The notes: generated by a model from the letters alone, not told the origin. Positions 17,089 through 31,208 are shown, counted from the first letter of the stretch. The stretch is DNA of 62,264 nt from Escherichia coli (GCF_003334305.1 NZ_QOWS01000027.1), one strand, 5' to 3'. Program-made: numbers and translations.

Positions 17089-17152
17089 TGATCTTGTTTG
17101 CTAATCTGTGTAAGTGACTTTTCTTAAAAATGCTCGAGTACACATTCCCGTT

Positions 17153-17851
17153 TTAGTTCCATGCATTTTTTGAGATCCCGGCCAAATAATGGTGCTGACG
17201 ATATTCCTCTGGCATCATATTGTTTAGTGATTCATACGGGCGTTCACAGTTATATTCTGACACCCATCTTTCAGTGATTTCCCGCACTTCATTCAGTGTT
17301 CTGAACAGATAAAAATCGAGTATTTCTGTACGGTATGTCCTGTTAAAACGCTCGATGAAAGCGTTCTGCGTCGGCTTACCCGGCTGGATAAACTCCAGTT
17401 TTACTGCATGTTTCTCTGCCCATTCAGCCAGTGCCAGTGAGATAAATTCCGGACCATTATCCATACGTAGCATGACCGGATAGCCACGGTTTGACGCGAT
17501 CCTGTTGAGTACACGAACCACTCGCAGAGCTGGCAGATTCAGATCGATTTCAATCGACAACGCCTCACGGTTAAAGTCATCAACGACATTAAACGTGCGA
17601 AAACGACGGCCACAGACTAGGGCATCATGCATAAAATCGACAGACCAGCTCTGGTTCAGCGCTTCCGGCGTGGCCAGTGGCGAGGGATTACGCACCAGCA
17701 ACCGCTGTTTGCCCTTACGGCGAAAGTTCAGCTTCAGCAGACAATAAATACGATGGATCCTTTTGTGATTCCACGGGTATCCCTGCCGCCGCAAAACCTG
17801 GAAAAGTTTCGGAAAACCGTATCGTGGGTATCGCTCTGCCACTGCCTGCAA
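17153..17851 (-). CDS. IS3-family transposase OrfB (DDE integrase core), expressed by -1 frameshift from orfA
   Basis: DDE-region motifs (NGPEF, QNAFIERFNRTYRTE, ERPYESL); true coding region extends upstream to the slippery site near 18004. Confidence 0.8.
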   Translation of the reverse strand: MQAVAERYPRYGFPKLFQVLRRQGYPWNHKRIHRIYCLLKLNFRRKGKQRLLVRNPSPLATPEALNQSWSVDFMHDALVCGRRFRTFNVVDDFNREALSIEIDLNLPALRVVRVLNRIASNRGYPVMLRMDNGPEFISLALAEWAEKHAVKLEFIQPGKPTQNAFIERFNRTYRTEILDFYLFRTLNEVREITERWVSEYNCERPYESLNNMMPEEYRQHHYLAGISKNAWN

Positions 17852-17984
17852 AGCGACAATAACGAGTTCGTCAGGCGTGGTATCCGGGCGGTAATGGTAA
17901 ACCGTTCTGCTCAGGTTCAGACTCCGGCAGGCCTGACGGATACTGAGTCCGAACGTCGTTATCAGATGAGTAACCAGCTCACGC

Positions 17985-18263
17985 TTAAAGGCTAGTTTTA
18001 AAGCTTTTTTCGATAACGTCTTTCAGCGCCCTGTTCTCAAGACTCAGGTCGGCAAACATCTGTTTGAGACGTGGGTTCTCGTCCTCAAGATCCTTGATCT
18101 TTTTAATATCAGAAGCCTCCATGCCACCGTATCTGGACTTCCAGTTGTAGTAGGTGGCTTCAGAAATACCGGCCTCCCGGCAGACATCTTTAACGGTTCG
18201 TCCGGCTTCAACTGACTTAATCACAGCGATGATCTGATGCTCAGTAAAACGGGCTTTACGCAT
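17985..18263 (-). CDS. IS3-family transposase OrfA (HTH)
   Basis: 92 aa, MRKARFTEHQIIAVIKSVEAGRTVKDVCREAGISEATYYNWKSRYGG; strong SD GAAGGAG upstream. Confidence 0.85.
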   Translation of the reverse strand: MRKARFTEHQIIAVIKSVEAGRTVKDVCREAGISEATYYNWKSRYGGMEASDIKKIKDLEDENPRLKQMFADLSLENRALKDVIEKSFKTSL

Positions 18264-18474
18264 AGCGATCTCCTTCGTTAGCAGATTGATTATGCCGGAT
18301 GATCTCTAAATATGAATGGCACGATTATGCGGGATACTTACACCCCCGGGCCACCATTTCTCGCCATATCCGGCTGGTATTATAATTACCTCTTTCTCGT
18401 TGTGTAAAAGCCAGCTCAAGGACTGAAAGCCTTAAAATACATGCTATTAACAAATATTAAAAGAGAATAACCTT

Positions 18475-28616: not shown

Positions 28617-28637
28617 TTACTCCCCCTTCAGTTAAGA

Positions 28638-29852
28638 TTAGACAACTGTTTTCGCTATCTCGTCAGACGGGGGAAATTTTAGCGAGTCATTACTAATAAA
28701 ATCAAATAGATCTCTTGCTTTCCAAAGCCGATATTCTGGATTGCGAATTGATCGTGGAACCATCCATCGTGCCATCGCACACTCAGCTATCTCTTTAGCA
28801 GAAAGCAAAGAGGTTAGATCTGGTTCACCTTTGCCTGTTTGCAGAATACTAGTTGCATTTTCTGCTAGCTGACTGATAAAAACTTCACGTTGAATTCCAT
28901 GCTTCATCAAATTATCTCTAAATCCTAGTACATTTAAAGCTGCCTTAGTTGTACGTAAACGCCAGTTAGGCCCATTACCAAACATATAATGATCTGCATA
29001 AGCGTGATCCATATCACGTAAGTAATCACGTAATTCAATGAACAAGCTATCAGGTATATGAAAATGCCCCCAACCGCCTGTATATCCAATCGATTTTAAA
29101 TATTGAATTCCATCCAGCTTTAAACGGTTATATACCGATGAGCGCCCCATAGACGATGTTGTTGTAATAGCCAAAAGACGTGCTTGTTTCTTTTTTTGAG
29201 ATATTACTCCAACGGTATCACCATAGACCTTTGCAAAGTCATCATAAAGATCGCGGCTACGAAGCAGACATGCAATTAATTTTCCTCCCAGCAGGGCATT
29301 ATAAGGGGGAAGAGCACCGAGGACGTATGCATCCATCAAATTAACAAGCCGGGAACTTCTGGCATGAGTATCCCACCCAATCAAATTATCTCGGACTGCA
29401 AGGTTGAACACAGGGTCACCAATTGCGATCAGCCCTATCAATTTTCCGTTGCTTTCATCCCATACAAGATACCGGAGACGCCTTCCAAATCCGCTTGAAA
29501 CAGGTACGGACCAAGTTAATGCTGCTAACCTAAAGAGATCTCCTTGCCAGGTTCCTGACTTTACACGTTCAAGTACCGGTGAAATCTTATCCGGAATGAC
29601 CTCATTGCCGGATGCGAAAAATTTAATAAGCTTTGCCGCTCTTAGCGTTATGAACTTTTGGTTTGCAAATATCCGCTCAGCTCGTTGAGAACTATGAAGA
29701 GCCCGTATTACATCTTTGGTATTTCCCGGGGCCTGGAGCGCTCCAGAATCAGATCTTGTAAAACCCAAGGATTGTAAATGCTCACGTACCTTCTTTTTCA
29801 GTTTGGCTTCTCGAAGGTTGATATTAACTATTATAGAGGGATCTTTGTGCAT
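28638..29852 (-). CDS. druA: DruA-like protein (Druantia type I first gene; DUF4338 expected)
   Basis: ~404 aa from ATG at 29852 (track ORF runs to a TTG at 29870); first gene of the five-gene operon. Confidence 0.6.
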   Translation of the reverse strand: MHKDPSIIVNINLREAKLKKKVREHLQSLGFTRSDSGALQAPGNTKDVIRALHSSQRAERIFANQKFITLRAAKLIKFFASGNEVIPDKISPVLERVKSGTWQGDLFRLAALTWSVPVSSGFGRRLRYLVWDESNGKLIGLIAIGDPVFNLAVRDNLIGWDTHARSSRLVNLMDAYVLGALPPYNALLGGKLIACLLRSRDLYDDFAKVYGDTVGVISQKKKQARLLAITTTSSMGRSSVYNRLKLDGIQYLKSIGYTGGWGHFHIPDSLFIELRDYLRDMDHAYADHYMFGNGPNWRLRTTKAALNVLGFRDNLMKHGIQREVFISQLAENATSILQTGKGEPDLTSLLSAKEIAECAMARWMVPRSIRNPEYRLWKARDLFDFISNDSLKFPPSDEIAKTVV

Positions 29853-30188
29853 TTTTATCTCACGTTCCAATTAGTATTTAGTCCCACTAAATTTCACTTA
29901 GAGCCCCAGTGATTAATCGCATGGCACAAGAGAGTCCCCTCCTTGCTCCCTCGATCGGGACATCGCCAATGATAGCATTTATACAAGCAATTCTGGGAGC
30001 TTATAGATTTTGTGAAAAACTTTTGATAGCAGGAGGTTACAACAGCATTGATGAAAAAAATCATTCAAATAGATTTATAGATTTTGTTAATGTTATCTGT
30101 TTTCAATCTAACAACCACGAATATAGCTAATTATAGGATGATTACTAGTTTTACTACCCTATCAACCAAACGTTCACCGGACATTAGA

Positions 30189-31208
30189 TGTGTGATTCAT
30201 AGACATCGTTTCACTATAATGCCTTACTATGAACAGGGAAATTCAGCAGCGGCTACAGTGGGTAAAACTCTATGAAACGTCTAGTGACGCGGGGTTCGTA
30301 TGCCGTCGCTGCGGTATTTCCCACCCCACATTGCGTAAATGGTGGCGCAGATATCTGGCTCAGGGCATCGCTGGTCTGGAAAGCCATAGCCGTCGCCCTA
30401 AACATTCACCATCAACGAAAACCGGCGCTGGCGAAGTCGCTCTGATTCTGGAGTTACGTTCCCTGCGAAATTTGGGTGCAAGGAGGATTCAGAGCGAGTT
30501 AAAACGACTTCATGCAATCTCACTGGCAGTGGCAACGATCCACAAAGTTCTTTGCCAGAATAAGGTTAAACCTGTCGTTAAATTCCGGCGTAAAGCAGAT
30601 TTTATTCGCTACGAACGCCCTGTTCCCGGTGATCGGGTCCAGATGGATACCTGTAAAATTGGCCCCGGTTTGTATCAGTACACATCTGTTGATGACTGCA
30701 CTCGCTCCAGAGTCCTGAGACTCTACTCTCGTCGCACGGCTGCAAACACACTGGATTTTATCGATTGTGTTATTGAAGAAATGCCTTTCCCGATACAGCG
30801 CTTACAGACAGACCGGGGAAGAGAGTTTTTTGCCGTTAAGGTGCAGGAGAAATTGAAAGAATACAGCATCAAGTTTCGTCCAAATAAGCCAGCCTCACCT
30901 CATCTTAATGGCAAAGTTGAACGTTCTCAAAAGACAGACAAAGCCGAGTTTTACGCTACCGTAGACCTCTCAACTGATGACCTGAAAGAACTGCTGGCAG
31001 AATGGCAGCATTACTATAACTGGGAACGCCCTCATAGCGCTCACAACGGTAAAACTCCGATGGAGCGCTACTTCGAACTTGCAGAGCAAACACCATACTC
31101 TGATGCCGTTCACGCAAGCTATCAGCCCAATGAAGAGCATATACAGGAACAGAATTACAAGCTTGAACTTGAACTGAGAAAATTGAAACGATGTCTATGA
31201 ATCACACA
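30189..31208 (+). mobile_element. IS481-family insertion sequence (~1.02 kb)
   Basis: Perfect 24-bp terminal inverted repeats TGTGTGATTCATAGACATCGTTTC (30189-30212 and 31185-31208) enclosing a single DDE transposase ORF. Confidence 0.85.
30229..31200 (+). CDS. IS481-family DDE transposase
   Basis: 323 aa; N-terminal HTH, integrase-core motifs (DxxxxG, NGKVERSQKT, ERPHSAHNGKTP). Confidence 0.85.
   Translation: MNREIQQRLQWVKLYETSSDAGFVCRRCGISHPTLRKWWRRYLAQGIAGLESHSRRPKHSPSTKTGAGEVALILELRSLRNLGARRIQSELKRLHAISLAVATIHKVLCQNKVKPVVKFRRKADFIRYERPVPGDRVQMDTCKIGPGLYQYTSVDDCTRSRVLRLYSRRTAANTLDFIDCVIEEMPFPIQRLQTDRGREFFAVKVQEKLKEYSIKFRPNKPASPHLNGKVERSQKTDKAEFYATVDLSTDDLKELLAEWQHYYNWERPHSAHNGKTPMERYFELAEQTPYSDAVHASYQPNEEHIQEQNYKLELELRKLKRCL

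What the first reader, a model, noticed from the sequence alone, without database searches (positions are those of the whole stretch)
17107..31208. Defense operon bracketed by two different insertion sequences
An IS3-family element (17107-18345) lies ~170 bp beyond the druE stop and an IS481-family element (30189-31208) lies ~320 bp upstream of druA. This gives a roughly 14-kb IS-bounded module, a configuration that could promote gain, loss or transfer of the defense system by IS-mediated recombination. The IS3-like element has no obvious target-site duplication, suggesting an IS-associated rearrangement at that junction.
Basis: partly seen in the sequence, partly recalled or inferred. Interest (0 to 1): 0.55.

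Follow-up and report, generated by a model that had tools for sequence, protein, structure and literature searches.

The report
Druantia operon in tRNA island, IS-scarred
A known anti-phage system (Druantia type I) sits in an ordinary E. coli genomic island beside a tRNA gene; the two insertion sequences next to it are real but mark old local deletions and joins, and they do not move the defence genes.

Summary
An IS3-family element (17109-18342, minus strand) and the IS481-family element ISEc18 (30190-31208) flank a complete druABCDE operon.

The "IS-bounded mobile module" reading is not borne out. The window matches a ~46-kb island at the pheV tRNA-Phe gene, 100% identical over the 23.5 kb compared to E. 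coli A7. The island has a P4-type integrase and a tRNA 3'-end direct repeat at its far end.

Among 5,426 complete E. coli genomes, 63 carry dru, none on a plasmid.
- 52 carry ISEc18 next to dru. 48 of these also have the complete IS3-like element joined to the EAL gene, always inside the same larger block. That block sits at pheV (16), pheU-type (17), leuX-type with a hybrid integrase (13), or in tandem (2).
- 11 carry dru with neither IS.

ISEc18 replaced 1,397 bp, but gene order continues across it. The EAL|IS3 junction also occurs in about 195 dru-less islands. Dru presence/absence breakpoints (18465, 29958, 17327, 32962, 30039, 17481) do not fall on termini of these two ISs. Dru was lost or disrupted through other ISs (IS2, IS100, IS66).

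This is an ordinary mosaic tRNA island, of low interest.

The parts
16306..17088 (+). EAL-domain (c-di-GMP phosphodiesterase-like) gene. It is the last gene of the fimbrial/pgt module and the left neighbour of the IS3-like element.
   Evidence: RefSeq annotation of the identical A7 locus; NCBIfam EAL-family hits. The EAL|IS3 junction is present in 243 genomes: 48 at >=99% identity (all dru+) and about 195 at ~92% (dru-less).
17109..18342 (-). IS3-family insertion sequence, unnamed, about 1.23 kb. orfAB lies at 17153-18263 with a programmed frameshift. No target-site duplication. Single copy in genome A7.
   Evidence: The IRL terminus at 18342 is defined by three independent relatives. The closest independent copy is 94.7% identical.
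17109..17146 (.). Atypical right-end repeat (IRR) of the IS3-like element. Terminal TGTAAGT is followed by about 29 nt absent from the IRL and from relatives. At the canonical terminus position the sequence is AGTACACATT where relatives have TGTAAATAGA.
   Evidence: The same odd end is conserved in the dru-less PBS4 island.
18343..18402 (.). Internal fragment of an ISL3-family transposase gene, cut exactly at the IS3-like IRL terminus.
   Evidence: 95% identical to part of an ISL3 transposase pseudogene in strain STEC434.
18403..18464 (.). 62-bp AT-rich stretch of unknown origin. It is restricted to genomes in which this ISL3-fragment junction lies next to dru.
   Evidence: Found only in 51 genomes, all dru+ with this junction, using blastn word 11.
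18465..29957 (-). Minimal dru-specific cargo segment (11.5 kb, about 40% G+C). druE 18513-24023, druD 24020-25063, druC 25075-26958, druB 26970-28616, druA 28638-29852.
   Evidence: PADLOC DruA-E type I, full-length. The left limit 18465 comes from comparison with strains 1-62 and 11. The right limit 29958 comes from strain ZYB39, which has the adjoining backbone without dru. G+C.
29958..30189 (.). Island backbone segment upstream of druA. It also occurs without dru. In IS-free islands it continues into an integrase fragment, an outer-membrane-protein gene and the pEtN transferase gene.
30190..31208 (+). ISEc18 (IS481 family), 1,019 bp, perfect 25-bp inverted repeats, transposase at 30229-31200. 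No target-site duplication. It replaces 1,397 bp of the IS-free arrangement.
31210..32711 (+). Phosphoethanolamine transferase pseudogene (frameshifts, internal stop). Its ATG lies 1 nt from the ISEc18 end. The gene is intact in the IS-free arrangement.
32976..34238 (-). P4-type tyrosine integrase of the island.
   Evidence: 97% amino-acid identity to the integrase of the dru-less PBS4 island. Its C-terminal part is shared with the leuX-type hybrid integrase.
34436..34511 (-). tRNA-Phe gene (pheV), the attachment site. Its 3' end faces the island.
   Evidence: ARAGORN. yqgA and speC lie beyond it. A direct repeat of the tRNA 3' end lies about 46 kb away next to yghD in A7.

Best explanation
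The druABCDE operon is cargo in the integrase-proximal part of a P4-type-integrase genomic island inserted at a tRNA gene, here pheV. The two insertion sequences are later arrivals that left local damage.

Shown:
- ISEc18 replaced 1.4 kb of backbone: an integrase fragment, an outer-membrane-protein gene and the DNA immediately upstream of the pEtN transferase start codon. That gene is now a pseudogene.
- The IS3-like element sits where the dru segment is joined to the fimbrial/EAL/pgt module. On the dru side it cuts into a fragment of an ISL3 element.
- The dru operon is found in new places only as part of the large integrase-linked block.

Inferred:
- Each missing duplication arose either by deletion outward from one IS end, or by recombination between two copies of the same IS. 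The data cannot distinguish these.
- The IS3-like element is probably immobile because its right-end repeat is interrupted or degenerate.
- The block moves by site-specific integration at the two identical tRNA-Phe genes. This is supported by tandem integration behind another island. It reached leuX by homologous recombination within the conserved 3' end of the integrase gene.
- The pair of unlike ISs does not mobilise dru.
For: Island identity:
- The window is 100% identical over the 23.5 kb compared (14000-37500) to A7, where the layout is tRNA-Phe, integrase, pEtN pseudogene, ISEc18, dru, IS3-like, EAL, fimbrial operon, pgt.
- A 22-nt repeat of the tRNA 3' end lies next to yghD about 46 kb away.

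Distribution:
- 63 of 5,426 complete genomes carry dru, and 0 copies are on plasmids.
- There is no megablast hit in PLSDB or in the phage collection. Only two plasmids carry a DruC homologue, at 38% identity.

IS-free arrangement:
- Strain 1-62 has window 18465-30188 at 99.1% and 31209-34559 at 95.9%. Between them lie 1,397 bp where the window has ISEc18.
- An independent ISEc18 copy has a 7-bp duplication; the window copy has none.

Location classes:
- 16 genomes have the full configuration at pheV.
- 17 end where the pheU-located loci end. RS571 was verified at pheU with 32.5 kb at 99.96%.
- 13 end inside the integrase gene. MP1 was verified at leuX with 28.3 kb at 99.0% and a hybrid integrase.
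- 23CRST001 has the island in tandem behind another island.
- Ecol_224 has both the proximal and distal modules at pheU next to cadC.

Breakpoints and counts:
- The EAL|IS3 junction is in 243 genomes. 48 are at >=99% and all are dru+. About 195 are at ~92% and share one truncation point at 17327.
- dru-less variants break at 17327/32962 (PBS4) and at 30039 next to IS2 (2017-19-1CC). The Ecol_224 deletion, which keeps dru, starts at 17481.
- Each flanking IS is single-copy in A7.
Against: - No excision, circular form or transposition was observed. All of this is comparative inference.
- Only one genome per location class was inspected in full. The other members are assigned by shared alignment end-points.
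- Relocation between pheV and pheU could also arise by homologous recombination between resident islands rather than by integrase action.
- The order of events at the IS3-like junction cannot be resolved. The IS remnant in dru-less islands is only about 76% identical in its interior.
- An IS3-IS3 recombination may have been what joined dru to the fimbrial module, so IS involvement in assembling the island is not excluded.
- Only complete E. coli genomes, PLSDB and GenBank phages were searched, mostly at megablast sensitivity.
Confidence: 0.8

Rival explanations
1. The 14-kb segment is a composite-transposon-like module. The two flanking ISs move or exchange the dru operon between replicons or islands.
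For: - Two intact-looking transposase genes bracket the operon.
- Both ISs lack duplications, which shows past rearrangement.
- GI-pheV modules are generally described as separated by ISs (PMC11537424).
Against: - The ISs belong to different families with unrelated ends.
- No duplication flanks the unit.
- Among 5,426 genomes, every genome with both ISs also keeps the neighbours outside them. No copy is on a plasmid or phage.
- 11 genomes have dru with neither IS, and strain 11 has ISEc18 but not the IS3-like element.
- Gene order continues across ISEc18.
- The IS3-like IRR is atypical.
Confidence: 0.03
2. dru was brought next to the fimbrial/EAL/pgt module by homologous recombination between two copies of the IS3-like element, one beside EAL and one inserted in an ISL3 element beside dru. 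On this view an IS did assemble this island variant, though it does not transfer dru further.
For: - The element has no duplication and two unrelated flanks. One is the old EAL junction shared with about 195 dru-less islands. The other is an ISL3 fragment cut exactly at the IRL terminus.
- Strain 11 has ISEc18 and dru but a different distal side, so the distal junction is a separate event.
Against: - No genome was found with the reciprocal product, or with the IS3-like element inside an intact ISL3 element.
- A one-ended deletion outward from the IRL explains the same structure.
- The element is single-copy in every genome inspected.
Confidence: 0.3
3. The two ISs are neutral passengers that inserted by simple transposition and had no structural effect.
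For: - Each is a single copy.
- The dru operon between them is intact.
Against: - Neither has a duplication, whereas an independent ISEc18 copy does.
- ISEc18 coincides with a 1,397-bp loss and with a decayed downstream gene.
- The IS3-like element separates unrelated sequences.
Confidence: 0.05

Closest known systems
GI-pheV: P4-type-integrase genomic islands at tRNA-Phe in E. coli, for example PAI V of strain 536 with pix fimbriae and pgtABCP (PMC11537424)
   Same: - A P4-like integrase lies next to the 3' end of pheV.
- An imperfect direct repeat of the tRNA end marks the far border next to yghD.
- The island is a mosaic of modules separated by ISs, with a fimbrial operon plus pgtABCP and a distal yee/CbtA-type module.
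   Different: - This variant carries pEtN transferase, ISEc18, Druantia and an IS3-like element between the integrase and the fimbrial module.
- The paper does not mention Druantia or defence.
- The same block also occurs at pheU and, with a hybrid integrase, at leuX.
Druantia type I anti-phage system (druABCDE)
   Same: All five genes are present, in order, and full-length against the PADLOC type I models. RefSeq names them DruA-E.
   Different: Nothing detected. It is a standard type I operon, 99-100% identical across 63 E. coli genomes.
ISEc18 (IS481 family)
   Same: It has a single DDE transposase ORF and 25-bp perfect terminal repeats. RefSeq names it ISEc18. It is 99.2% identical to an independent copy that has a 7-bp duplication.
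   Different: This copy lacks a duplication and adjoins a 1.4-kb deletion.
Composite (compound) transposons such as Tn10 or Tn5
   Same: Cargo genes lie between two ISs.
   Different: The two ISs are of different families, there is no flanking duplication, and the unit is never seen in a second context.
Defence islands on mobile elements at tRNA hotspots in E. coli (Hochhauser et al. 2023, PMC10121019)
   Same: A defence system is carried on an integrase-bearing element at a tRNA locus. That study reports that 18 of its hotspots lie within tRNA loci.
   Different: That paper mentions Druantia at a type I restriction-modification hotspot. I did not check whether its tables list the Phe or Leu tRNA islands described here.

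Membership tests
Composite transposon | Two copies of the same IS, or ISs with compatible ends, flank the cargo | tested here: not met
   One element is IS3 family and the other is IS481 family. Their terminal repeats are unrelated (TGTAAGT... versus TGTGTGATTC...).
Composite transposon | A target-site duplication flanks the whole unit | tested here: not met
   The outer flanks are TAATCTG and GATGAAT.
Composite transposon | The unit is found as a whole in different genomic contexts | tested here: not met
   All 48 genomes with both complete ISs keep the EAL/fimbrial side and the pEtN/integrase side. None is on a plasmid or phage.
IS3 family insertion sequence | DDE transposase made from orfA and orfB by programmed -1 frameshift | tested here: met
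   RefSeq annotates an intact frameshifted CDS. orfB scores 215.8 bits against transpos_IS3, cut-off 160.
IS3 family insertion sequence | Terminal inverted repeats ending 5'-TG...CA-3' | tested here: inconclusive
   The IRL is TGTAAGTATCCCG..., ending at 18342. The IRR has TGTAAGT at 17109 but then about 29 extra nt. At the canonical position the end reads AG rather than TG.
IS3 family insertion sequence | Short (3-5 bp) target-site duplication | tested here: not met
   The flanks are CTG and CCC, and no other register gives a match. This is expected after a rearrangement, so it does not argue against the family.
IS481 family (ISEc18) | Single DDE transposase ORF matching the family model | tested here: met
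   261.2 bits against transpos_IS481, cut-off 224. RefSeq names it ISEc18.
IS481 family (ISEc18) | Terminal inverted repeats and a target-site duplication | tested here: inconclusive
   The 25-bp inverted repeats are perfect. The duplication is absent here (CATTAGA versus GATGAAT) but is present (7 bp) at an independent copy.
Druantia type I | druA, druB, druC, druD and druE are all present, co-oriented and full-length | tested here: met
   PADLOC: DruA E = 5e-218, DruB 3e-270, DruC 0, DruD 7e-178, DruE 0, each covering nearly the whole model.
Druantia type I | Confers phage resistance | not testable with these tools
   This needs plaque assays.
tRNA-integrated genomic island with P4-type integrase (GI-pheV type) | A tyrosine integrase lies adjacent to the 3' end of a tRNA gene | tested here: met
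   The integrase is at 32976-34238 (-) and tRNA-Phe at 34436-34511 (-), with the tRNA 3' end facing the island.
tRNA-integrated genomic island with P4-type integrase (GI-pheV type) | A direct repeat of the tRNA 3' end marks the distal border | tested here: met
   TTCGATTCCGAGTCCGGCACCA lies next to yghD in A7, about 46 kb from the tRNA and outside the window. There is no second copy inside the window.
tRNA-integrated genomic island with P4-type integrase (GI-pheV type) | The same element occupies alternative attachment sites or sits in tandem | tested here: met
   pheU (RS571, Ecol_224), a tandem array (23CRST001), and leuX with a hybrid integrase (MP1).
tRNA-integrated genomic island with P4-type integrase (GI-pheV type) | Excision and integration catalysed by its integrase | not testable with these tools
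   This needs attP/attB PCR or long-read evidence.

The most novel reading that the evidence does not exclude
The roughly 40-kb integrase-proximal block carrying Druantia may still be an active integrative element. It would move between the two identical tRNA-Phe genes, stack in tandem behind other islands, and have been re-targeted to tRNA-Leu (leuX) by recombination inside the conserved 3' end of the integrase gene. That would make it a defence island that changes its chromosomal address by swapping integrase modules.
Probability: 0.3. Interest if true: 0.35.

Novelty: already known. Interest (0 to 1): 0.15.

Why it matters
It matters little beyond bookkeeping. The case shows that a defence operon flanked by ISs should not be assumed to be IS-mobilised. 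Here the ISs mark deletion and fusion scars, and the operon travels with an integrase-linked island block. It also gives a worked map for anyone studying Druantia type I in E. coli: 63 of 5,426 complete genomes, two arrangements, three tRNA sites, and occasional erosion by ISs.

Tried and rejected
- Searched for the dru operon on plasmids (PLSDB, megablast) and in phages. There was no match. A protein-level search with DruC found only two distant (38%) plasmid homologues, in Pseudomonas and Ralstonia.
- Looked for an internal copy of the tRNA-Phe 3' end between the pEtN/OMP backbone and dru in the IS-free island, which would show that dru arrived as a second tandem island. None was found.
- Tried to find the origin of the 62 bp at 18403-18464. 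It occurs only in the 51 genomes with this junction.
- Tried to define a clean IRR and duplication for the IS3-like element from three independent relatives. Their IRR is TGTAAATAGA|CCCG, none shows an obvious duplication, and the window's end differs.
- Considered that the dru-less PBS4-type island is a recent deletion derivative of the window type. This was rejected as a recent event. The EAL end is only about 92% identical, and the interior of the IS remnant about 76%.
- A literature search for Druantia together with pheV found no paper.
- Two literature searches failed for lack of capacity and were repeated later.
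Full report
**What is in the window**

The region 14000-37500 is 100% identical to E. coli strain A7. RefSeq annotation of that record gives the following order, in window coordinates:
- pgtPCBA, an IS21 fragment, and a seven-gene fimbrial operon;
- an EAL-domain gene (16306-17088);
- an IS3-family transposase (17153-18263, minus strand, programmed frameshift);
- druE, D, C, B, A (18513-29852, minus strand);
- an ISEc18 transposase (30229-31200);
- a phosphoethanolamine (pEtN) transferase pseudogene (31210-32711);
- a tyrosine integrase (32976-34238, minus strand);
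- tRNA-Phe (34436-34511, minus strand);
- the core genes yqgA and speC.

This is the pheV locus. In A7 a 22-nt imperfect repeat of the tRNA 3' end lies next to yghD. That gives an island of about 46 kb, whose far end is outside the window. The dru segment is about 40% G+C against about 51% for the core genes.

**Checking the observation**

All five Dru proteins match the PADLOC type I models over nearly their full length. Both transposases pass the NCBIfam cut-offs for their families.

ISEc18 spans 30190-31208 with perfect 25-bp terminal repeats. An independent copy in strain STEC299, 99.2% identical, has a 7-bp duplication, CGTAAGG. The window copy is flanked by CATTAGA and GATGAAT, so it has none.

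For the IS3-like element, three independent relatives (90-95% identical) stop matching at 18342. This fixes the left-end repeat (IRL) terminus, TGTAAGTATCCCG....

The other end is unusual:
- Relatives end in TGTAAATAGA|CCCG.
- The window has AGTACACATT|CCCG at that position, and 28 nt further out a TGTAAGT (17109) that matches the IRL terminus.
- The best IRL/IRR alignment needs a 29-nt gap just after TGTAAGT.

Under either reading there is no duplication (CTG versus CCC). The statement about the missing duplication is right, and it applies to ISEc18 as well.

**Comparative test: does dru come and go with these ISs?**

The dru operon is present at 80% coverage or more in 63 of 5,426 complete E. 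coli genomes. It is always chromosomal. It has no megablast match in PLSDB or in GenBank phages.

There are two arrangements:
- Arrangement B (11 genomes, 99.1% identical) has neither IS.
- Arrangement A (52 genomes, 99.8-100% identical) has ISEc18.

In strain 1-62 (arrangement B, at pheU):
- Window 18465-30188 and 31209-34559 are collinear with its island.
- Between them lie 1,397 bp holding an integrase fragment and an outer-membrane-protein gene. The window has ISEc18 there instead.
- The breakpoints fall exactly on the two ISEc18 termini.

ISEc18 is therefore an insertion plus adjacent deletion inside a conserved order: tRNA, integrase, pEtN transferase, OMP, integrase fragment, dru. It is not a boundary of the dru module.

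Its right end lies 1 nt before the ATG of the pEtN transferase gene. That gene is intact in arrangement B, and it is frameshifted or carries an internal stop in every arrangement-A genome I inspected.

**The IS3-like side**

In arrangement B, and in strain 11 (arrangement A at pheV, with ISEc18), druE is followed by a small ORF and a different IS3 element. Similarity to the window stops at 18465, 48 bp past the druE stop.

In the window, 18343-18402 is an internal fragment of an ISL3-family transposase gene, cut exactly at the IS3-like IRL. The stretch 18403-18464 is an orphan found only in the 51 genomes with this junction.

On the other side, the EAL|IS3 junction is old and widespread. It occurs in 243 genomes:
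- 48 are at 99% identity or more, and all of these are dru+.
- About 195 are at about 92%, and all are truncated at the same point (window 17327).

In one of the latter, PBS4, the pheV island matches the window at 7669-17327 and again from 32962. In between it has 1.3 kb of unrelated DNA containing an IS110 fragment, and it has no dru and no pEtN gene.

The IS3-like element thus separates two unrelated pieces of DNA.

**What actually moves**

A 23.5-kb query (14000-37500) sorts the arrangement-A genomes as follows:
- 16 have everything through speC, so they are at pheV.
- 17 stop at 34559, the same end-point as the loci verified to be at pheU.
- 2 stop inside the tRNA.
- 13 stop at 33284/33293, inside the integrase gene.
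- 3 start at 17481.
- Strain 11 makes up the remainder.

I verified one genome of each class:
- RS571 has 32.5 kb at 99.96% next to pheU (dicD, dsbD). The shared block runs about 39.8 kb, up to another IS3-family element.
- MP1 has 28.3 kb at 99.0% next to tRNA-Leu (leuX; ahr, idnK). Its integrase is 69% identical overall, but its C-terminal part is shared with the window's.
- 23CRST001 has the island in tandem behind another island, joined at a partial tRNA repeat.
- Ecol_224, at pheU next to cadC, has the proximal part and the distal part of the A7 island. An internal deletion runs from inside the IS3-like element (17481) into a DUF932 gene.

The other members of each class are assigned by shared alignment end-points only.

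The counts close:
- 52 + 11 = 63 dru+ genomes.
- The ISEc18|pEtN junction is in 53 genomes: the 52 plus 2017-19-1CC.
- The high-identity EAL|IS3 junction is in 48 genomes.

**Losses of dru**

- 2017-19-1CC keeps tRNA-Phe, integrase, pEtN pseudogene, ISEc18 and 151 bp of the druA upstream region, then IS2 and unrelated genes.
- 33F4-type genomes keep only 300 bp of druE among IS100 and IS66 elements.
- One genome keeps druA and part of druB.
- In four genomes dru is interrupted or carries a small deletion.
- ZYB39 has the backbone (29958-30188, integrase fragment, OMP, pEtN) next to other cargo. This places the right limit of dru-specific DNA at 29958.

None of these breakpoints falls on a terminus of the IS3-like element or of ISEc18.

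**Conclusion on mechanism**

Shown:
- The ISs are real.
- Both lack duplications.
- ISEc18 coincides with a 1.4-kb deletion.
- The IS3-like element lies at a fusion point.
- The 14-kb unit never occurs apart from its neighbours.
- dru exists without either IS.
- The larger integrase-linked block sits at three tRNA loci and in tandem.

Inferred:
- The block is mobilised by site-specific integration at the two tRNA-Phe genes.
- It reached leuX by homologous recombination in the integrase 3' end.
- The missing duplications arose by one-ended deletion or by recombination between two IS copies.
- The IS3-like element is probably immobile because of its interrupted right-end repeat. It is single-copy in the genomes examined.

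**Comparison with what is known**

A 2024 study of GI-pheV describes these islands as mosaics of gene modules separated by insertion sequences, with the P4-like integrase as the only conserved gene. It reports pix fimbriae plus pgtABCP downstream of the integrase in strains 536 and S79EC, with an imperfect right direct repeat. It does not mention Druantia (PMC11537424).

A pan-genome survey found that 18 E. coli defence hotspots lie within tRNA loci (PMC10121019). No paper in the library contains both "Druantia" and "pheV".

That the fimbrial operon here is the pix cluster is my inference from that paper and was not tested.

**Verdict**

Rearrangements at the ISs did occur, but the 14 kb is not an IS-driven mobile module.
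- Every component and the architecture are of known kinds. Interest is low.

Noticed in passing
window 31208-32711: The right end of ISEc18 lies exactly 1 nt before the ATG of the phosphoethanolamine transferase gene. The gene carries frameshifts or a stop in every ISEc18-bearing genome inspected. It is intact in the IS-free arrangement, which keeps its upstream region and an OMP gene.
   Followed up: partly
window 17109-17146: The right-end repeat of the IS3-like element looks interrupted. A terminal TGTAAGT is followed by about 29 nt absent from the left-end repeat and from three independent relatives. The same odd end is conserved in about 195 dru-less islands.
   Followed up: partly
window 18403-18464: A 62-bp AT-rich orphan lies between an ISL3 transposase fragment and the druE terminator. 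It is found only in the 51 genomes with this junction and nowhere else in 5,426 complete E. coli genomes.
   Followed up: yes
L012 27977-29239 (E. coli MP1): The same pgt-fimbrial-EAL-IS3-dru-ISEc18-pEtN block sits at tRNA-Leu (leuX) behind a hybrid integrase. That integrase is 69% identical overall, with a C-terminal part shared with the window's integrase. The DNA breakpoint is at window 33284. Thirteen genomes share this end-point.
   Followed up: partly
L019 23230-29600 (E. coli 23CRST001): The dru island lies in tandem behind another island, joined at a partial tRNA-Phe repeat. In this genome ISEc18 is itself split by an IS3 insertion.
   Followed up: partly
L008 9454-10682 (strain 11); window site 18899-18905: druE is split by another IS3-family insertion in strain 11. 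B1172, KD0845 and R12 also show an insertion or a small deletion inside dru. About 4 of 63 dru+ genomes are affected.
   Followed up: partly
L018 9001-9300 (strain 33F4); window 22873-23172: At least five genomes keep only a 300-bp internal piece of druE (99% identical) among IS100 and IS66 elements. The surrounding island otherwise resembles that of strain 1-62. This is a separate loss of dru.
   Followed up: partly
window 9500-10000: The first fimbrial subunit gene is only 80-87% identical between the window and the PBS4 island, while the rest of the operon is about 99% identical. This suggests a variable major-pilin allele. The operon with pgtABCP resembles the pix/pgt arrangement reported for PAI V of strain 536. 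That identification was not tested.
   Followed up: no
L004 11981-12262 (strain 1-62): A 93-aa ORF (WP_016230754.1) lies just downstream of druE in the IS-free arrangement and in strain 11. It is absent from the window. Whether it belongs to the Druantia locus is unknown.
   Followed up: no
L017 1-3327 (strain ZYB39): The same backbone (window 29958-30188, integrase fragment, OMP, pEtN transferase) adjoins a large AAA-domain protein gene and a hypothetical gene where dru would be. This may be a different cargo at the same position.
   Followed up: no
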